DNA of 20,000 nucleotides from an uncultured virus (IMG/VR IMGVR_UViG_3300032330_000970) (lineage: Duplodnaviria > Heunggongvirae > Uroviricota > Caudoviricetes), in the IMG/VR virus record IMGVR_UViG_3300032330_000970; one strand, given 5' to 3'. The notes under the pieces are model-generated. The model did no database searches and had not been told where the DNA came from. It was given only the letters and a program-made list of their open reading frames with translations. Shown here piece by piece: positions 4,716 through 18,036 of the stretch. The position numbers and the translations under genes are program-made. Each line of letters begins with the position of its first letter. Position 1 is the first letter of the stretch.

Positions 4716-6505
4716 AAAATACATACGCGATCGATTTTGAAACTTATTACGACAAAGAAATATCAATTACAACAATGGGGCAGTGGCATTACTTGCGAAA
4801 CCCAGCATCAGACATTTATCTGGTTTCAATTCATGGGCCCGATGTACAGTACGTCGGATCTCCAAAGAAAGCTCCGTGGGAAAAGATTGATGGTGGAAAT
4901 TGGTTGGCACACAATTATTCATTTGACGGAGCTGTGTTGGAAAGATTGCGAGAGCTTGGAATAACTAAAGCAAATCCGTCTAGTTGGTTTTGTACGGCGA
5001 ATCTGTCTGTTGCTGTCGGTGCTCCTAGAAATTTGTTGGGCGCATCGCGGGAACTTCTTAATCGAAAGATTGACAAAGATCCGCGGGATAAAATGCACAG
5101 CAAAAAGTGGAGTGATGTCGAGGGAACGGAATTTGCTAAAGAAGTCATTGAGTATGCGAAAAACGATGCTCAAGCATGCTACGAAATCTACGATAAGTTC
5201 CACAATCAGATGCTTCCAACGGAACAGGAACTATCTAAACACACCATAGAAATGGGCTGGAAAGGGGTCCAAATTGACCAAAATGCGGTTGAAATGGGGG
5301 TAAAAAAGCTTGAAAGAGTGACTTGGGAGAGCGAAAACGCCCTACCTTGGATTGAGGAAACCAATGGGGTTGTCCTTTCCACAAAGGCTTTTAGGCGTGA
5401 ATGCGCCAAGGCTGGCATCCCTTGGCCCACATCGTTGGCTGAAAACTCGGAAGAATGTGCTCTATGGGAGGAACAATACGGGAATCAGGTTCCGTTTGTG
5501 GGTATCATGCGGGATTGGCGCAAGGCTAATTCCTTGTTGGCAAAGCTAAAGGTAATGAGAAACCGTATACGCCCAGACGGGACAATGGCTTACGGACTCA
5601 AATACATGGGCGCACACACTGGTCGGTGGTCTGGTGACAGTAAGTGGAATTGCCAGAACCTTCCGAGAAATGAGATGTTTGGGGTAGATTTACGGGGTTG
5701 TATTATACCCCGTTCGGGTAAGAAGTTTGTAATTTGTGATCTAGCGCAAATTGAGCCCAGAGTATTAGCTTGGCTATCTGGAAACGAAGGACTTCTAGAT
5801 GCAATCAGAAAAGGATATGGCATCTACGAGGCGGCCGCAAAAAATATGGGGCTATGGAATGGTGACAAGGGAACCCTTAAGAAAACCGATCCTGATCTTT
5901 ATCAATTGGTAAAGTGTATGGTTTTGGGTTTGGGCTATGGAGCTGGGTCTAAGAAGTTTGCGCTGATCGCAAAGATGCAATACGGAATCAATATGACTGA
6001 GGCAAGAGCCGGAACGGTGGTGAATGATTTCCGATCACGCAATCAGCCAATTATGGATTTATGGAGAAAGCTTGAAGGTGATTTTCAAAGGGCTAAGGCA
6101 GACAAACAGTTTGAGGTTGGATTGCCTGGGGGAAGAATCCTTACCTACCGTAACATCATGTCACAGTGGCCTGAGTCACAGAAGTTTGGAAAGAATGGAG
6201 TGGCTCGCAAGCCAGCATGGACTGCATGTGTTGAGCGTGGAGGACCGCAGATCCCGTTCTATGGTGGAAAACTATGTGAGAATCTTGTACAGGCTGTGGC
6301 GCGAGATGTTATGGGAGAGGCTATTCTGCGGTTAGAAAAAGCGGGATGCTCCGTGGTGATGCACATCCATGACGAAGCTGTTTGCGAAGTTGACAATTCA
6401 GTTCGGGCTGGTGAGATTGAACACCTCATGAGCGTCTGTCCTGAATGGCTTGAGGGTTGTCCGATAGGGGCGGAAGCAGCAGATGCAATGAGGTACAAAA
6501 AATGA
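4712..6505 (+). CDS. Phage family A DNA polymerase with a 3'-5' exonuclease domain
   Basis: ExoI DFET, ExoII HNYSFD, ExoIII YAKND; TGRWS; motif A DLAQIEPR; motif B K...LGLGYG; ENLVQ; motif C HDE. Confidence 0.95.
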   Translation: MKNTYAIDFETYYDKEISITTMGQWHYLRNPASDIYLVSIHGPDVQYVGSPKKAPWEKIDGGNWLAHNYSFDGAVLERLRELGITKANPSSWFCTANLSVAVGAPRNLLGASRELLNRKIDKDPRDKMHSKKWSDVEGTEFAKEVIEYAKNDAQACYEIYDKFHNQMLPTEQELSKHTIEMGWKGVQIDQNAVEMGVKKLERVTWESENALPWIEETNGVVLSTKAFRRECAKAGIPWPTSLAENSEECALWEEQYGNQVPFVGIMRDWRKANSLLAKLKVMRNRIRPDGTMAYGLKYMGAHTGRWSGDSKWNCQNLPRNEMFGVDLRGCIIPRSGKKFVICDLAQIEPRVLAWLSGNEGLLDAIRKGYGIYEAAAKNMGLWNGDKGTLKKTDPDLYQLVKCMVLGLGYGAGSKKFALIAKMQYGINMTEARAGTVVNDFRSRNQPIMDLWRKLEGDFQRAKADKQFEVGLPGGRILTYRNIMSQWPESQKFGKNGVARKPAWTACVERGGPQIPFYGGKLCENLVQAVARDVMGEAILRLEKAGCSVVMHIHDEAVCEVDNSVRAGEIEHLMSVCPEWLEGCPIGAEAADAMRYKK

Positions 6506-9291: not shown

Positions 9292-10281
9292 ATGTTTAGC
9301 ATCAGCTTTGGCGGCCTTACTGGGTTTGGCCGTATGTGTATTTTTAACCGCCATCTACATGCAAGTTCGTTGTTGGCTGCGGCGCTGGTTTTAATCCCGC
9401 TTTCGGCAAAAGGAACAGACTTTAGTCACCCATGCGAACTGAGCATGAAGTCTGTAGTTCGTGTGTTCCAGAATGAAAAGGACACAAACAAGATCACGTT
9501 TGGAACCGGCACAATCATTGGAAGGGATGGAACTATCCTGACATGCGCCCACGTAGTTGATGGGACTGGCAAGATTGATGTAATGTTTGGTGACGGTCTT
9601 ACCAACGCAGTTTATAGTGCCAAGGTAATTCAATCCGACGCGAAGTTGGATTTGGCTCTACTGAAACTTGAGGGATGTCCGGAACATTTGCGGCCGATGC
9701 CACTATCCAAAATGCCAACGCCTCCGCGGGGAACTCCAGTAGTGGCAATTGGTTCACCGCTTAAGATATTCCGAACGGCAACCCAAGGCATCGTTAGTTA
9801 TGCAGGTCCGGATGAAGGCCAAGATATCCTGGTGTTTGACGCCAGGGTCATGCCAGGATGCTCAGGAGGGCCCGTAATAGACGAATCTGGCGACCTTATA
9901 GGCATTGTGACGGGTGATCTAGGCAGAGACACTCATAGGCTTGCTAGGGCCGTTTACTTGACAGAAATCGAAAAGTTCTTGGCAAACGTATCGTCCAACG
10001 CTCCCCAACGGGGGTTTCTTGGGATTGACACAACTCCGGTAGGTACGGGGATTGCGGGTCCTGGAATGTCAGAAGGTCTGAAGGTTACCAATATGTCTGC
10101 CATAGATGAGCTTCTTCCGGGAGACGTAATCATGACTTTCAATGATTACCAAGCAACTAACCATAAAGACCTAGTTAGGATGGTTCGTAAATGTACACCA
10201 GGAGACCGAGTTGAGGTAGGCATTTTACGTAATGGTGAGTTCAAACTTATACACATGATTATTAAGGAGTTGCGGAAATGA
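9292..10281 (+). CDS. HtrA/DegP-like trypsin serine protease with a C-terminal PDZ domain (start uncertain)
   Basis: GTGTII..DG.ILTCAHVV (His), DLALLK (Asp), PGCSGGP (Ser). PDZ features GFLGI, L.PGDVI and V.ILRNG. Signal-like segment LLAAALVLIPLSA. Confidence 0.9.
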   Translation: MFSISFGGLTGFGRMCIFNRHLHASSLLAAALVLIPLSAKGTDFSHPCELSMKSVVRVFQNEKDTNKITFGTGTIIGRDGTILTCAHVVDGTGKIDVMFGDGLTNAVYSAKVIQSDAKLDLALLKLEGCPEHLRPMPLSKMPTPPRGTPVVAIGSPLKIFRTATQGIVSYAGPDEGQDILVFDARVMPGCSGGPVIDESGDLIGIVTGDLGRDTHRLARAVYLTEIEKFLANVSSNAPQRGFLGIDTTPVGTGIAGPGMSEGLKVTNMSAIDELLPGDVIMTFNDYQATNHKDLVRMVRKCTPGDRVEVGILRNGEFKLIHMIIKELRK

Positions 10282-10532
10282 CAACTCTTTTGGGCATCTT
10301 GTTCTCTACCATAGGGTTATGCGTGTGTGTTATTGGGTTCTCTCATTGGTTTGTGCAAACATTTAACATTGATGCATTTGTCAATAAATTTTGGGATCAT
10401 GAAGAGGCTAGAAACATACGTTTTGTCCCCAAAGGGACACATAAAATGATTAAGGTAAGGACTGACTTTATAGTCAAGTTACATACCCCCACCCACAGGA
10501 ATTGGTGTAAAGGATTACGAATCAAAGGTTAA
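10278..10532 (+). CDS. Hypothetical membrane protein
   Basis: AAGGAG Shine-Dalgarno; N-terminal hydrophobic helix. Confidence 0.7.
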   Translation: MTTLLGILFSTIGLCVCVIGFSHWFVQTFNIDAFVNKFWDHEEARNIRFVPKGTHKMIKVRTDFIVKLHTPTHRNWCKGLRIKG

Positions 10533-10790
10533 GGATTCGAAGGGTGTAGGGTGGGGGGTGGAGGGGTGGTTTTGAACTCGTTGTTCCTACAGCTTTGCGT
10601 GTGTGCCGTGTGTGTCAAAACTTCCGGAACGAGTTGGGGTACCCCCACCCACCCCCACCACTCCCACCCTCTCTTTCTTTATATTTATATATTTAAATAA
10701 TAAACATATACTTACACAAGGACCCAAGGTTAAAAATTTGGGTGGGGGTACCACTTTTTGACCCCCCACCCTAGGCAACACCCCCACCCT
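10484..10790. repeat. CCCCCACCC repeats in both orientations around an AT-rich core (candidate replication origin)
   Basis: Perfect inverted repeats at 10547-10559/10761-10773 and 10638-10651/10739-10752; AT-rich stretch at about 10672-10712. Confidence 0.7.
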
Positions 10791-12712: not shown

Positions 12713-12865
12713 CCCACAAAAATAAATTAAATTTTTAAAATACATATACCCTATTATGGGCTGGCTGGAAGGGGGGTGGGGGAGGGGGTGCGTATAGGGG
12801 TTGTCCCGCAAACCCACAGCCCGATAGGGCAGGGGGGAGGGGGAAACCAAAAAGGAAACATAACT

Positions 12866-13291: not shown

Positions 13292-13298
13292 CCCACTA

Positions 13299-13335
13299 GG
13301 GGAGGGGGGAGAGAAATCTCCCCCCTTCTCTTTTT
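13299..13335 (+). terminator. Rho-independent terminator
   Basis: GGGGAGGGGGGAGA-GAAA-TCTCCCCCCTTCTC stem-loop followed by TTTTT. Confidence 0.8.
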
Positions 13336-13413: not shown

Positions 13414-13869
13414 TTACACGTCGATGGTCGGCTTCGGTGCATCGTCGGTTCGAAGAATCGCCAAGTTAACCACAGTCTTTCCCATTTGTCCACCGTTTTG
13501 TGTTGCGAGTCCCAAAGCTGGTCGAGCTATTCTGTCCACCTTCTCGAGAACTTCGATATGATCTTTCAATTCCTTCCTGCTTCCAGGCATCTCGGCTTCG
13601 AGGACGTCCAAGCTGTGGTCGACTTGATTAGCAATCCTCGACAGATATCTGGCCTGTTTATCGGTAGCAGTCTGCACAATCTCCCGATCCACCTTCTGCT
13701 TCAGTTGCACAATGTTTGCATCCTTCCGTGCAACCCACTTGCATCGCCTAGCTTTACTAGCCAAAGTGTTAAGGCTCAGACAATACTGCGATGCAATGAA
13801 GCTACGACTCTTGCCTCCAACGAAGTCACGTTCAACCGCTTTCCAATCTATAGCCAAGGCTTTAGGCAT
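13414..13869 (-). CDS. Terminase small subunit-like HTH protein
   Basis: IDWKAVERDFVGGKS...IA.QY.LS.NTL..KARR.KW is a typical TerS N-terminal HTH, followed by helical segments. Confidence 0.65.
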   Translation of the reverse strand: MPKALAIDWKAVERDFVGGKSRSFIASQYCLSLNTLASKARRCKWVARKDANIVQLKQKVDREIVQTATDKQARYLSRIANQVDHSLDVLEAEMPGSRKELKDHIEVLEKVDRIARPALGLATQNGGQMGKTVVNLAILRTDDAPKPTIDV

Positions 13870-13904: not shown

Positions 13905-14026
13905 TGCATCTTTGAATCAAGGAATCAACGATGCCGTGCATCCTGTGCACAATCAACCTTCATCCCCCCTGCCTTTCGGGTCGTTCCCGAAGGGGGAGGG
14001 GGAACCGCAGCGTATAAGGAGTACAT

Positions 14027-14772: not shown

Positions 14773-15057
14773 ATGAGAGGTAGACCCATCGATCTCAAAC
14801 ACGTCGTGACCAATGCCAGCCAAGCTTATTATAATCGCAGACTGAATAAGAAAGACTGGCAAAGGAATGTCAAGATGGCCAGACGCACTAGCCGAACGAC
14901 CATCGCGCTCAAGCGGAAAGAAGGCTTGGAATATCAGTATGCGTTGACTGACATCCATCGGGCGATCATCAAGAAAGCTATGATGACCCCCGATGAAGCT
15001 TATCAACGAAACAAGGTAACCAAGAAGCTAGGGCTTGCTTGGGTTATGTGCGGATGA
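14773..15057 (+). CDS. Basic hypothetical protein
   Basis: AAGGAG Shine-Dalgarno; 94 aa. Confidence 0.7.
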   Translation: MRGRPIDLKHVVTNASQAYYNRRLNKKDWQRNVKMARRTSRTTIALKRKEGLEYQYALTDIHRAIIKKAMMTPDEAYQRNKVTKKLGLAWVMCG

Positions 15058-15139
15058 GTGCCGAGAGATTACTGCTGTGGAGTTGGCTGTTCATGCTGAC
15101 TCCGTCACCCAAGCTTCGGCACGGAAACAACTAGGCGGA

Positions 15140-15197
15140 TAGACCAACTGACCTGCTGCCCGCGGGTAGGTCAGAAGTCTGGCCGATAGGCTGGAAA
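15140..15197 (+). ncRNA. Repeated structured element, copy 1
   Basis: TAGAC-N3-[hairpin]-N2-GTCT-GGCCGATAGGCTGGAAA; the same architecture recurs at 17630. Confidence 0.55.
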
Positions 15198-15232
15198 TGA
15201 AAGTAACACTAACCAAGAAAGAATCAGTAAAT

Positions 15233-15466
15233 ATGAAACTGAATAACGAAGGTAAGATAGTCATTGAAGTGAAACACGGCGTGTCATCAGACGGGAGTCT
15301 GAACGGCCGTTACTATATGGCCAGCATGGAAGGCTGGACTGGTGAGGGCTTGACCGAAGCGGACGCGGTGCGCGATGTGCATCAGTCCCGTGCGGAAGCT
15401 TTGACCAAGCTTCACCACAACAACCGCGTGTTTGGAACGCGCCTAAACTTCGAGGTGGTCTCGTGA
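15233..15466 (+). CDS. Hypothetical protein (alternative start at 15197)
   Basis: ORF with an A-rich leader. Confidence 0.65.
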   Translation: MKLNNEGKIVIEVKHGVSSDGSLNGRYYMASMEGWTGEGLTEADAVRDVHQSRAEALTKLHHNNRVFGTRLNFEVVS

Positions 15467-15603
15467 GTTGGGCGGAGTTCTTTGAGGTGATGACGATCAT
15501 CATCCAACTCGTGTGTGCGTTTCTGGTAATCCCTAGTTGCCTAGTCGCAGCTACGATTCTTCTACACCGCCTTCTCAAGATGGCCGCGGAGGAATTGAAT
15601 TGA
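15463..15603 (+). CDS. Small single-pass membrane protein (46 aa)
   Basis: GTGA-coupled with GAGG upstream; MSWAEFFEVMTIIIQLVCAFLVIPSCLVAATILL... Confidence 0.55.
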   Translation: MSWAEFFEVMTIIIQLVCAFLVIPSCLVAATILLHRLLKMAAEELN

Positions 15604-15953
15604 AAGCTGGCGACAAGCTATGGGTCGATGCCCAAATGATTGAGATCTTGAAAGGTCACAATCTTGGGCGGAAGTTCCGCTTGAACACTGGCGTGGTCGA
15701 GGTAGCTGGCGACATCTACACCGATGACACGATGGTGCCGAAGGAACTGAATGTGAAAATCGGTGATGCCCGTTGGGTCAGCCTGCCTTTGGGTGAGCTG
15801 GAACGTCCGTGGCGTTACCCAACCTTCCGCCGTTTGCTTGCGGTTATCCGCTCGTGGACTGGTGACTGGTTGTTCCGTGCTCGCAAGAAAGAGCAGGGAA
15901 TCGACATCGAAGAAACAATTAACAATGAGGAGAACGACAATGATCAAAGTTAA
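15600..15953 (+). CDS. Hypothetical protein
   Basis: Probable TTG start at 15600 after GGAGG, overlapping the upstream stop. Confidence 0.6.
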   Translation: MKAGDKLWVDAQMIEILKGHNLGRKFRLNTGVVEVAGDIYTDDTMVPKELNVKIGDARWVSLPLGELERPWRYPTFRRLLAVIRSWTGDWLFRARKKEQGIDIEETINNEENDNDQS

Positions 15954-16125
15954 GCTTGGTTGGGGGTGGATGCGTTTCCACTTCTTCGCAAACAGATTCA
16001 ACAACGCCATCGTGGCTAACGTGGAGTTTCGGCCTCTCGGTTTTGAATTCTACCGCGGTAGTCATTCGGCAATCATCTACTTGGAGCTTGTCATCGGCAC
16101 GCTGATGATCAAGTTGAGCAAATGA
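15940..16125 (+). CDS. Hypothetical protein
   Basis: GAGGAG Shine-Dalgarno before the ATG at 15940. Confidence 0.6.
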   Translation: MIKVKLGWGWMRFHFFANRFNNAIVANVEFRPLGFEFYRGSHSAIIYLELVIGTLMIKLSK

Positions 16126-16289
16126 AAGCTGACAAATACTTAGATACTTGTACAGAAGCAGAGTGTGAGTTTGTATACGAGAGATTTTATGGCCAATCGA
16201 CGCATGAATTGGTTGAAGATCTCCTAAGTTACATTGACCACGAACCTATCAAACAATTAGTCGAAAACTATAGAAAGGAAACCAAATGA
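16122..16289 (+). CDS. Small hypothetical protein (55 aa)
   Basis: ATGA overlaps at both ends; fills the gap exactly. Confidence 0.6.
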   Translation: MKADKYLDTCTEAECEFVYERFYGQSTHELVEDLLSYIDHEPIKQLVENYRKETK

Positions 16290-16675
16290 GTTACCCAATC
16301 GAAGTCGTGGCCGAGAAGGGAACGCTCCAGCGCAGGCTGGGTCTGACCCCTATCGACCGAACCTCAACGGCAGACTTCCCGAAAGGGAAGGTGACCATCA
16401 GAACAAACAGAATTCCAACAACATCAGAGGGCGGAGCTTATGCGTTCTACTACTCAAACCCCAAAGGTTACAGAGCAGTGTGTCACGTCGGCCCTGTGTT
16501 TGAATACACAAGCCAAGGAAGAGTTGCCAGTGAGGAAATCTATTATCACTTCAACTCTGGTTGCTTGAAGAAAACTCAACTCGACGCGTTTGTCGGAACC
16601 ATCAAGGCCATCGAAGCCAAGGTCGATGCCCTTATGAGAAAGGAATCCAATGGCTACCAAGACGAAATCAGTTAA
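16286..16675 (+). CDS. Hypothetical protein
   Basis: AAAGGA Shine-Dalgarno; 129 aa. Confidence 0.7.
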   Translation: MSYPIEVVAEKGTLQRRLGLTPIDRTSTADFPKGKVTIRTNRIPTTSEGGAYAFYYSNPKGYRAVCHVGPVFEYTSQGRVASEEIYYHFNSGCLKKTQLDAFVGTIKAIEAKVDALMRKESNGYQDEIS

Positions 16676-16985
16676 GCAGAAGCTGACCAATGCCCAGCTT
16701 GAGAGGATAAAGATTCAGGGCTTTATTAGCATCTATGCCGATGACGAGCACAAAGAAAACATCATCCTAGCCGATGGCTTGGACAAAGCTTTCATTGGGC
16801 TTGCCTATCGAGATGGTGAACACGGAGCACAAGTGGCGGTGTATGGAATTTTTTCCTGCATCGACACACTCGTGAAACAAAACAAATGGGATTGGGACGA
16901 AGCTGAAGAATACTTCAACTTCAATACCCGCTGGGCTTATGTCGGCGAGTATACCCCAATGTTCATTGAGGAGATGCCACGATGA
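16650..16985 (+). CDS. Conserved phage hypothetical protein
   Basis: ADG.D.AFIG...VAVY...EAEEYF.FN...AYVGE.TP.F resembles a pattern recalled from aquatic phage proteins; not verified by search. Confidence 0.75.
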   Translation: MATKTKSVKQKLTNAQLERIKIQGFISIYADDEHKENIILADGLDKAFIGLAYRDGEHGAQVAVYGIFSCIDTLVKQNKWDWDEAEEYFNFNTRWAYVGEYTPMFIEEMPR

Positions 16986-17230
16986 CTGCCAAGCTGACAC
17001 CTCAAGAGATTAGGCAAGGCGACACCGTGTGGTGGCGCGGAAGCTTTGGCAATGATGGCTGGGAGAAGGCGAAGGTTCATCGGATTGAACTCGTTCGCCC
17101 AGGCCAAAAAGAAAACGGACTCCTTGTGCCTTGGGTGCCTACAACCATTATCGAGAACTGTGTTTTCGATTTGGACAATGGGCATTGGGCATATGGATAT
17201 CAAATCAAACCAGTGGAGGAAACACTATGA
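16982..17230 (+). CDS. Hypothetical beta-rich protein
   Basis: GAGGAG Shine-Dalgarno; ATGA-coupled. Confidence 0.7.
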   Translation: MTAKLTPQEIRQGDTVWWRGSFGNDGWEKAKVHRIELVRPGQKENGLLVPWVPTTIIENCVFDLDNGHWAYGYQIKPVEETL

Positions 17231-17478
17231 GCGTGCAACAACTAAACTGCGGAACTATGATAACAGGAGAAAGCATCAATAGGTTTCGCCTATTGATGGC
17301 AATCCAAGGCTTGGAGACTCACATTCGATCGGGTGGTCGGATGCGTGTGTCACGAGGCGTAACACCGAAACTTTGTATGGGGATTGTGAGTGGGTTCACT
17401 CGCAAGAAATACAAGAGGACAGACGCGCAGAAAGCGGCTGATGATGGCCGTAACTTCTTAGCTCTGAATGGACTATGA
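17227..17478 (+). CDS. Hypothetical protein
   Basis: Start re-called at 17227 (GGAGG upstream, ATGA overlap). Confidence 0.65.
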   Translation: MSVQQLNCGTMITGESINRFRLLMAIQGLETHIRSGGRMRVSRGVTPKLCMGIVSGFTRKKYKRTDAQKAADDGRNFLALNGL

Positions 17479-17621
17479 GCATCGACCCTAAGCAAGACGG
17501 AGCTAACGGAGGTTATACCGAGGAGGAGCGAGAGATTGTCGAGCAATGTAAGTTCGACGAATACATCGCCACCAAGGATCTAGACGAGGACGGAGAGTCT
17601 GAGTCGGAATCTGAAGAGTAG
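17475..17621 (+). CDS. Small highly acidic protein (48 aa)
   Basis: MSIDPKQDGANGGYTEEEREIVEQCKFDEYIATKDLDEDGESESESEE; ATGA-coupled. Confidence 0.6.
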   Translation: MSIDPKQDGANGGYTEEEREIVEQCKFDEYIATKDLDEDGESESESEE

Positions 17622-17629
17622 TTGTCGCC

Positions 17630-17688
17630 TAGACACTCTGCCCCGTCGCTCGGACGGCGGGGTAGCAGTCTGGCCGATCGGCTGGAAA
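17630..17688 (+). ncRNA. Repeated structured element, copy 2
   Basis: TAGAC-N3-[hairpin]-N2-GTCT-GGCCGATCGGCTGGAAA. Confidence 0.55.
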
Positions 17689-17718
17689 CAAACGAAAACC
17701 AAAATGAAAGGACACAAT

Positions 17719-18036
17719 ATGGAACTAACAATACCATCAGAAGTGGTAGATGAGTTCGGTCGGGCGACCGAGTGGCTCAAACTATCCAATGAGAAACGCA
17801 AAGAATATCGGACTCTATTCCTAGAATCCGCGAAGCAAGGAATCAAAAGCTGGGTGGGCCAGCACTTCACGGTTCAGATGGATGAGCACGATAAGGCAAG
17901 ACTTGCCAAACCTTTGCTCAAATCCAACCTGCTCAAGTATCTGACGCCAGAGCAAGTCAACCACATCATCGATGCTTCAACAGTATCGAGCGAAGAGTGG
18001 CACTTTACGGCGCGAAGGATTCCGACAGGTGAGTGA
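17719..18036 (+). CDS. Hypothetical protein (alternative start at 17704)
   Basis: AAAGGA Shine-Dalgarno before the ATG at 17719. Confidence 0.7.
   Translation: MELTIPSEVVDEFGRATEWLKLSNEKRKEYRTLFLESAKQGIKSWVGQHFTVQMDEHDKARLAKPLLKSNLLKYLTPEQVNHIIDASTVSSEEWHFTARRIPTGE

What the first reader, a model, noticed from the sequence alone, without database searches (positions are those of the whole stretch)
15140..17688. Repeated two-hairpin structured element with compensatory changes punctuating the early operon
Seen: two intergenic copies (15140-15197 and 17630-17688), each a few nt after the TAG of a micro-ORF and before an A-rich leader. Both read TAGAC, 3 nt, an inner hairpin, 2 nt, GTCT, then GGCC-GAT(A/C)-GGCTGGAAA, with 21 of 22 nt identical from AGTCT onward. 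The inner hairpin differs in sequence but keeps its pairing and length: CTGACCTGC/GTAGGTCAG (27 nt) versus CTGCCCCG/CGGGGTAG (28 nt). AGAC pairs with GTCT across the same 3x2 internal loop. A related GCCC-GATA-GGGC hairpin precedes the first early gene (12819-12830). There is no U-tract, so these are not terminators. Known analogues: HK022 put antiterminator RNAs, T7 early RNase III sites and N4 hairpin promoters. Inference: a possibly undescribed cis-acting RNA or ssDNA motif controlling early expression.
Basis: partly seen in the sequence, partly recalled or inferred. Interest (0 to 1): 0.8.

Follow-up and report, generated by a model that had tools for sequence, protein, structure and literature searches.

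The report
Two-state RNA hairpin in phage operons
Two distantly related groups of uncultured phages carry, between small early genes, the same RNA element (no Rfam match) whose two alternative folds are both conserved; it likely marks where the host's RNase III cuts the long message and leaves the downstream piece protected by its own hairpin.

Summary
The genome has two copies. I collected 88 distinct homologues from two phage groups whose terminases are about 24% identical and whose only detected shared DNA is this element with its leader. It lies between a stop codon and an A-rich leader (ATG 50-56 nt after GTCT). The inner stem is swapped among five sequence types yet always pairs (G-U 140, A-C 0), so the fold is on the transcribed strand. 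Fold A competes with a 7-bp tail hairpin (fold B); both are kept in 88 of 88. Fold A resembles T7 RNase III sites. The best E. coli register (3 of 4 proximal-box positions) would cut so that the downstream mRNA starts at the first base of fold B. It is not HK022 put, a PeSL, a terminator or an Rfam family. It is present twice in 10 of 10 group A records and once in 20 of 61 group B loci. Cleavage is untested and the host is unknown.

The parts
15136..15195 (+). Copy 1, whole element (fold A 15136-15185; fold B 15178-15195)
   Evidence: (66 bits)
15136..15144 (+). Copy 1 5' arm CG-NNY-AGAC; pairs with 15177-15185 in fold A
15148..15174 (+). Copy 1 inner stem-loop (type iv, 10 bp), above a 3x2 internal loop
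15178..15195 (+). Copy 1 tail hairpin, fold B (7 bp, GAUA loop); predicted 5' end of the processed mRNA (predicted cuts 15145/15146 and 15177/15178)
   Evidence: cut positions inferred
15196..15235 (+). A-rich leader and ATG (15233) of a 77-aa ORF; Shine-Dalgarno weak in this copy
15054..15134 (+). 26-aa micro-ORF whose TAG abuts copy 1; kept in relatives
17626..17686 (+). Copy 2, whole element (fold A 17626-17676, extendable to about 17620-17683; fold B 17669-17686)
   Evidence: (59.9 bits)
17638..17665 (+). Copy 2 inner stem-loop (type iii, 11 bp)
17669..17686 (+). Copy 2 tail hairpin, fold B (GAUC loop); predicted cuts 17635/17636 and 17668/17669
   Evidence: cut positions inferred
17687..17721 (+). 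A-rich leader, AAAGGA at 17707-17712 and ATG (17719) of a 105-aa ORF, two genes before rIIA
17475..17621 (+). 48-aa ORF whose TAG precedes copy 2
12819..12830 (+). Related CC-GAUA-GG hairpin apex before the leader of ORF 12866; a separate unit, not a full copy

Best explanation
It is a conserved RNA element between early phage genes, with two alternative folds, that likely works as a cut-and-cap signal: the long hairpin would be cut by host RNase III, and the freed downstream mRNA would begin with its own protective hairpin. SHOWN: position between a stop codon and an A-rich leader; fold A (lower stem CG-NNY-AGAC with GUCU-GNC-CG, a 3x2 loop, and an 8-12 bp inner stem of free sequence) and fold B (7-bp tail hairpin) are each compatible with 88 of 88 sequences; the folds overlap, so they exclude each other. 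INFERRED: fold A forms first during transcription. RNase III cuts in the best-fitting register (5' strand inside the internal loop, 3' strand between the G and U of GUCU). The downstream product then starts at the first paired base of fold B, with a single-stranded A-rich leader behind it, which would stabilise it and boost the next genes. If only the 3' strand is cut, the inner stem would also shield the upstream mRNA's 3' end. As a by-product, the invariant cores act as crossover points at which stems and flanking genes are exchanged.
For: Covariation: 7 of 8 inner-stem pairs change on both sides, score 0.40 against 0.13 shuffled. The earlier 41-sequence set, not filtered for a hairpin, gave 8 of 9. 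Columns never used in any search pattern pair with the tail: C8-G58 88/88 (CG 87, UG 1), G9-C57 88/88, Y12-R54 88/88 (CG 64, UG 21, UA 3), while neighbours 10 and 11 pair in only 17 and 56 of 88. Fold B: G55-C64 becomes C-G in 4, G54-U65 becomes G-C in 4 and A-U in 3, and the loop varies freely. Strand: G-U 140, A-C 0 in the first 8 inner pairs. T7 intergenic hairpins from V01146 have the same build: imperfect lower stem, internal loop, 9-12 bp upper stem. Using the R1.1 cut at nt 5887 (PMC8708148) and the box rules of PMC1540722, 1 of 24 registers stands out: pb1 C-G 64/88, pb2 A-U 88/88, pb4 A-U 88/88, no antideterminant, db2 G 79/88. In the staggered partner register pb2 is A-U or U-A in 84/88 although that stem is otherwise replaced. 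A product starting at U51 forms fold B with mean probability 0.99. CC-GAUA-GG hairpins followed by an A-rich leader also sit just behind the sigma-70 promoter in several group B phages and before the first early gene of group A, which fits fold B being a 5'-end structure.
Against: No cleavage or RNA end was observed, and the host and its RNase III preferences are unknown. pb3 is G-C in all 88 where E. coli prefers A-U, and db1 is A in only 14/88. The core is invariant, so the register fit counts as about one observation among 24 registers tried. The 4 type-vi sequences have C-G at the partner pb2, and a further stem type seen as a contig loose end appears to have G-C there. Fold A does not dominate in the precursor once flanks are added: marker-pair probability is above 0.5 in 41 of 88 for A and 29 of 88 for B, and copy 1 favours B (0.38 vs 0.61). 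The 49-of-49 advantage for A used rough constraints. Fold B's double-sided change comes from one lineage. Most tail invariance was imposed by my search patterns; only the 20 terL-selected and 10 group A cases are free of that bias. The element is absent from 41 of 61 group B loci, and several downstream gene families occur without it.
Confidence: 0.5

Rival explanations
1. An uncut stabiliser or ribosome-gated switch. A ribosome terminating at the upstream stop would cover the 5' arm and flip fold A to fold B, changing decay or translation of the downstream genes without RNase III.
For: The upstream stop lies just before the CG or within YAGAC in most loci (31-42 nt before GTCT; 47 and 51 nt in two). 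Blocking the 5' arm gives fold B with mean probability 0.98. The two folds are near balance in the precursor.
Against: Neither fold covers the Shine-Dalgarno or start codon (the ATG is 50-56 nt after GTCT). No U-tract follows, so there is no obvious output. A stop next to an intergenic element is expected from dense gene packing.
Confidence: 0.2
2. Primarily a DNA-level feature: an internal promoter cassette or a recombination joint (PeSL-like), with RNA folding secondary.
For: Identical 5' arms carry different inner-stem types, and one downstream gene occurs with different stems. About nine downstream gene families occur in group B. A group B phage (L155) carries the group A type iii stem. 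TAGGCT in the tail looks like a -10 box.
Against: The -10-like hexamer is broken in the GAUC and GUGU variants, including window copy 2. There is no -35 match at the right spacing, and no promoter call at either copy. Group B has a clear sigma-70 promoter about 0.5-1 kb upstream. There are only one or two copies per genome. The G-U bias points to a single strand. No RNA polymerase family was found among the proteins scanned.
Confidence: 0.1
3. A put-like RNA that binds RNA polymerase and suppresses pausing or Rho-dependent termination in the early operon.
For: HK022 putL also has AGAC paired with GUCU, and putR lies about 270 nt into an early transcript (PMC9378689). A folded RNA with an invariant core fits protein recognition.
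Against: In put, AGACG closes a 7-nt loop inside a pseudoknot and triplex, with a ~37-nt second stem. Here AGAC/GUCU encloses 26-34 nt and the second hairpin is 18 nt. My simple scan found an intrinsic terminator downstream of the element in 0 of 20 group B operons and none in the window.
Confidence: 0.08
4. A new class of small self-cleaving ribozyme, possibly a pseudoknot in which the 5' CG pairs into the loop of the tail hairpin.
For: Intergenic slot, invariant core with a freely replaced stem, and spread between distant phages. Pairs 8-58 and 9-57 could coexist with 55-64 and 56-63 as a crossed fold.
Against: No Rfam match. Both loops vary freely and nearly every invariant base is explained by pairing in A or B, so there is no unpaired core. 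No known ribozyme reached gathering score in 18 element-less group B loci or in 9 further sources.
Confidence: 0.08
5. A neutral duplication or chance similarity.
For: It is absent from two thirds of group B loci.
Against: 0.00 expected by chance; pairing is kept across five stem types; fixed at two slots in 10 of 10 group A records.
Confidence: 0.02

Closest known systems
RNase III processing signals of the phage T7 early mRNA (R1.1 and the other intergenic hairpins of V01146)
   Same: Intercistronic, after a stop and before a purine-rich leader; imperfect lower stem, internal loop, 9-12 bp upper stem with G-U pairs, often a GCAA loop. The T7 0.4-0.5 hairpin even has the 7-mer GAUAGAC on the 5' side of its internal loop, like copy 1 (low weight, may be chance).
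   Different: T7 keeps the sequence of the upper stem; here the upper stem is free and the lower stem is invariant. Here the 3' arm has a conserved alternative hairpin. pb3 departs from E. coli rules. No cleavage has been shown.
HK022 put antiterminator RNA (PMC9378689)
   Same: Early-operon cis RNA of 60-70 nt with an AGAC/GUCU helix.
   Different: Different topology (put: 7-nt loop, pseudoknot, triplex, long stem II, G35-A9 pair); no intrinsic terminators found downstream here.
PeSL promoter-stem-loop cassettes of T4-like phages (PMC4122927)
   Same: A repeated intergenic stem-loop ending in Shine-Dalgarno and start codon, at points where small genes are exchanged.
   Different: PeSLs contain a sigma-70 promoter and occur in many copies; this element has no conserved promoter and one or two copies.
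5'-terminal stabilising stem-loops of bacterial mRNAs (recalled, not from a call)
   Same: Fold B followed by an unpaired leader, like the hairpin right behind the early promoter in several group B phages.
   Different: Here the hairpin is internal and would need a cut to become terminal.

Membership tests
T7-type RNase III processing signal | Between genes of a polycistronic early transcript | tested here: met
   Stop upstream and ATG 50-56 nt downstream in 88 of 88; co-transcription inferred from gene layout and promoter position
T7-type RNase III processing signal | Irregular duplex of about two turns with an internal loop | tested here: met
   9-position lower stem (7 conserved pairs), 3x2 loop and 8-12 bp stem, plus a variable extension; at the short end of the range
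T7-type RNase III processing signal | Proximal and distal boxes without antideterminants (E. coli rules) | tested here: inconclusive
   Best of 24 registers meets pb1, pb2, pb4 and db2, and fails pb3 and db1; host unknown
T7-type RNase III processing signal | Cleavage by RNase III at a defined bond | not testable with these tools
   Only assembled contigs were available
HK022 put RNA | AGACG/CGUCU duplex closing a short loop, with triplex and pseudoknot | tested here: not met
HK022 put RNA | Long second stem and G35-A9 platform | tested here: not met
   The second hairpin is 18 nt; put stem II is about 37 nt
HK022 put RNA | Terminators downstream that must be read through | tested here: not met
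   0 of 20 group B operons and none in the window, intrinsic type only; Rho sites not tested
HK022 put RNA | Acts through the RNA polymerase beta-prime zinc-binding domain | not testable with these tools
   Needs transcription assays
PeSL cassette | Contains a sigma-70 -35/-10 promoter | tested here: not met
PeSL cassette | Marks exchange points of small genes | tested here: inconclusive
   Mosaic stems and many flanking genes, but the region is just as variable in phages without the element
Known self-cleaving ribozymes and other Rfam 15 families | Match to a covariance model | tested here: not met
   No hit over either copy at E up to 5; none at gathering score
Known self-cleaving ribozymes and other Rfam 15 families | Conserved unpaired catalytic core | tested here: not met
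   Loop sequences vary freely
N4-type hairpin promoter (features recalled) | Phage-encoded virion RNA polymerase | tested here: inconclusive
   The 3695-aa protein gave only weak helicase hits, and no polymerase family appeared among the proteins scanned; a remote polymerase domain is not excluded
N4-type hairpin promoter (features recalled) | Short hairpin formed on the template strand | tested here: not met
   Wobble pairs are on the coding strand, 140 vs 0; minus-strand folds are not significant
Intrinsic terminator | U-tract after the hairpin | tested here: not met
   An A-tract follows; no call at either copy on either strand

The most novel reading that the evidence does not exclude
A portable two-state RNA device, traded between distant phages of one host, in which the upstream ribosome decides whether the cleavable long hairpin or the protective tail hairpin forms, so that translation of one gene gates processing of the message for the next; or the same RNA cuts itself as a new pseudoknotted ribozyme class.
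Probability: 0.13. Interest if true: 0.85.

Novelty: new variant of a known kind. Interest (0 to 1): 0.5.

Why it matters
If right, it is a 60-nt module that both specifies a cut and pre-builds the cap for the new 5' end, with natural variants showing which bases the nuclease reads. It would give RNase III recognition rules for an unstudied host and a compact part for setting expression within operons. It also shows a regulatory RNA moving between phages that share almost nothing else. The general design (hairpins between early genes) is known from T7 and has been noted in other phages by this scan, which limits the surprise.

Tried and rejected
Loose pattern scan: 120 loci, only 2 real. Prokaryotic genomes: 22 of 22 matches looked like chance (at most 30 bits, no A-rich leader), so no prophage or host clue. 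Cultured phages: no meaningful DNA match; the DNA polymerase is at most 28% identical to any. Host inference from the protease and terminase failed, and no whole-genome search for relatives or hosts was obtained. RNA runs: only contigs of related strains, with 6-21% of words shared. Contigs of two studies begin at 17680-17682 and others at 15189 and 15202, 11-24 nt past the predicted ends. But contigs cannot show ends, they break at repeats, one X4 contig runs across copy 2, and no DNA run was laid as a control, so this is not counted as evidence. Distant group A relatives: an alignment-based scan returned only the 9 loci already held. Gene linked to the element: family g12 is always followed by it (9 of 20 vs 0 of 41), but 11 element-bearing loci lack g12 and the loci are related, so no trans factor is proposed. 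Hammerhead resemblance of the tail (core motif recalled): rejected, since the upstream core is missing and the GAAA varies. A second long hairpin in L358, L361 and L378 overlaps a short ORF. Literature: the literal motif is in 0 papers. It was not found in 7 supplementary files of the viral structured-RNA catalogue PMC10690425, but files 1 and 2 could not be searched and may hold it, and bioRxiv supplements were closed.
Full report
CONTEXT. The window is the last 20 kb of a 64,406-nt single-contig phage genome. The genome encodes a family A DNA polymerase, helicase, terminase, rIIA and a 3695-aa protein with only weak helicase hits; no RNA polymerase family was found among the proteins scanned. 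The two copies lie in a run of small, same-strand unknown ORFs from 14027 to rIIA. The closest cultured phage polymerases are at most 28% identical. The host was not identified.

OBSERVATION. Confirmed as written: two copies in the genome and none expected by chance. With 10 more bases on the 5' side, both copies fold as a single long irregular hairpin in which the tail pairs with a 5' arm.

HOMOLOGUES. Pattern scans gave 14 loci, 43 loci (all scored at least 66 bits with a model built from them), 86 loci of which many were chance, and 123 metagenome matches from 26 of 64 parts scanned. I dropped 65 of those 123 for lacking an inner hairpin of -5 kcal/mol or an A-rich leader. The model also found a divergent type (L149, L157, L158, L187). 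The final set has 88 distinct sequences. The hairpin filter biases the 100% pairing of the inner stem in that set; the earlier 41-sequence set had no such filter and all 41 folded. The sequences fall into two phage groups. Group A (contigs of 67-82 kb, rIIA) has two copies at the same two slots in 10 of 10 records counting the window. Group B (contigs up to about 39 kb, terminase and portal divergent from a short early operon) has one copy. Of 80 loci fetched by terminase (the best 80 of 222), 61 reach at least 2.2 kb into the early side and 20 of these hold the element, some near-identical. Against the window's genome, group B proteins match only at 20-25% (terminase, portal, one other), and the only blastn hits are at the two elements. 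One group B phage carries a group A stem type (L155). Horizontal transfer is inferred from this.

ANATOMY (numbering of alignment A1). Stop codon; CG-NNY-AGAC (8-16); 3 free nt; inner stem-loop of 21-29 nt; 2 free nt; GUCU-RSC-CG-NNN-GG-SY-GGRA (50-69); A-rich leader; ATG 50-56 nt after G50 in 88 of 88. The inner stem has five sequence types, and 7 of 8 pairs change on both sides. Identical 5' arms occur with different stem types, so stems are exchanged at the invariant AGAC and GUCU. Wobble pairs fall on the coding strand only, 140 to 0, though these cells come from a handful of lineages. Fold A is supported by columns 8, 9 and 12, which no pattern asked for and which pair with 58, 57 and 54 in 88 of 88, while columns 10 and 11 drift. 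Fold B (51-57 with 62-68) is kept in 88 of 88, with one double-sided and two single-sided changes and a free loop; the double-sided change is one lineage. The two folds use the same bases. In the precursor they are predicted to be near balance (A marker pair above 0.5 in 41 of 88, B in 29); B is near certain once the 5' arm is removed or blocked.

MECHANISM. T7 intergenic hairpins folded from V01146 have the same build. I fixed the register from the R1.1 cut at nt 5887 (PMC8708148, passages) and the box preferences in PMC1540722 (passages and figure legends), then scored 24 cut positions. The best is a 5'-strand cut after position 17: pb1 C-G 64/88, pb2 and pb4 A-U 88/88, db2 G 79/88, but pb3 G-C and db1 mostly not A. 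Its staggered partner is between G50 and U51, where pb2 is A-U or U-A in 84/88 across four otherwise different stem types; the fifth type breaks it. U51 is the first base of fold B, so a cut there would give a downstream mRNA with a paired 5' end and an open leader. That such hairpins stabilise mRNA is recalled knowledge; that internal loops can limit the cut to one strand and leave a protective 3' hairpin is stated in PMC1540722. A similar CC-GAUA-GG hairpin plus leader lies right behind the sigma-70 promoter in several group B phages and before the first early gene in group A, which fits a 5'-end role for fold B. All of this is inference: no cut or RNA end was seen, the register fit is effectively one observation, and E. 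coli rules may not hold in this host. I put it at 0.5.

RIVALS. Ribosome-gated or uncut stabiliser, 0.2: the geometry allows it, but no output is evident. DNA-level promoter or joint, 0.1: no conserved -10/-35, and gene shuffling is as strong where the element is absent. put-like, 0.08: the AGAC/GUCU helix is shared with putL, but the published fold differs (PMC9378689, first three of nine parts read), and my scan found no intrinsic terminator downstream in 20 operons (1 of 20 had a call, upstream of the element; 3 of 36 element-less operons had one; 5 loci were dropped for lacking the end marker). New ribozyme, 0.08: no unpaired core, and no known ribozymes in the equivalent slots.

NOVELTY. 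No Rfam 15 match. The motif is in no searchable paper and not in the 7 searchable supplementary files of PMC10690425 (two files unseen). By words, earlier notes describe other hairpin families in early operons of other phages, one with two exclusive folds; these are unchecked AI notes and not support. PeSL features are from passages of PMC4122927. PMC11780869 was seen as passages only and not used. Verdict: a real, uncatalogued RNA family that most likely works like a T7-type RNase III signal with a built-in 5' cap hairpin; membership is not established. New variant of a known kind; interest 0.5.

Noticed in passing
window 12819-12865; L165:2190-2260; L138 about 5530-5595: A CC-GAUA-GG hairpin with varying stems precedes the A-rich leader of the first early gene in both phage groups; in several group B phages it starts about 7 nt after a sigma-70 -10 box.
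   Followed up: partly
window 12770-12800, 13964-14020 and 10529-10700: G-run tracts ending in GCGTAT(A) upstream of ORFs 12866 and 14027, conserved in relatives, with no sigma-70 promoter call; a similar G/C-run region lies near 10550-10700. Possibly a promoter type, G-quadruplex or genome-end signal.
   Followed up: partly
window 13964-14001: A strong hairpin (-30 kcal/mol with flanks) before the leader of ORF 14027, kept with changed sequence in L183, L184 and L186.
   Followed up: partly
window 13414-13869 (-) and 13298-13331 (+): The terminase small subunit gene sits alone on the minus strand inside the early region, facing a strong terminator, far from the large subunit gene.
   Followed up: no
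L015:7626-18713 (-): A 3695-aa protein among virion genes with only weak superfamily-2 helicase hits at residues 1359-1790; the rest is unassigned.
   Followed up: partly
window 9292-10281; L015:938-1645: The phage encodes an HtrA-like protease with a PDZ domain and an 8-oxoguanine glycosylase-like protein.
   Followed up: no
run X4, loose end before window 17665: A contig of a related phage shows a further, unrelated inner-stem sequence after AGAC, suggesting more stem types exist.
   Followed up: no
L299-L378, early operons: Group B phages with 89-100% identical terminases have almost freely shuffled 2-3 kb early operons drawn from dozens of small gene families.
   Followed up: partly
L358:4219, L361:4279, L378:3600 (minus strand): A long irregular hairpin directly before an A-rich leader in three element-less phages; it overlaps a short ORF.
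   Followed up: partly
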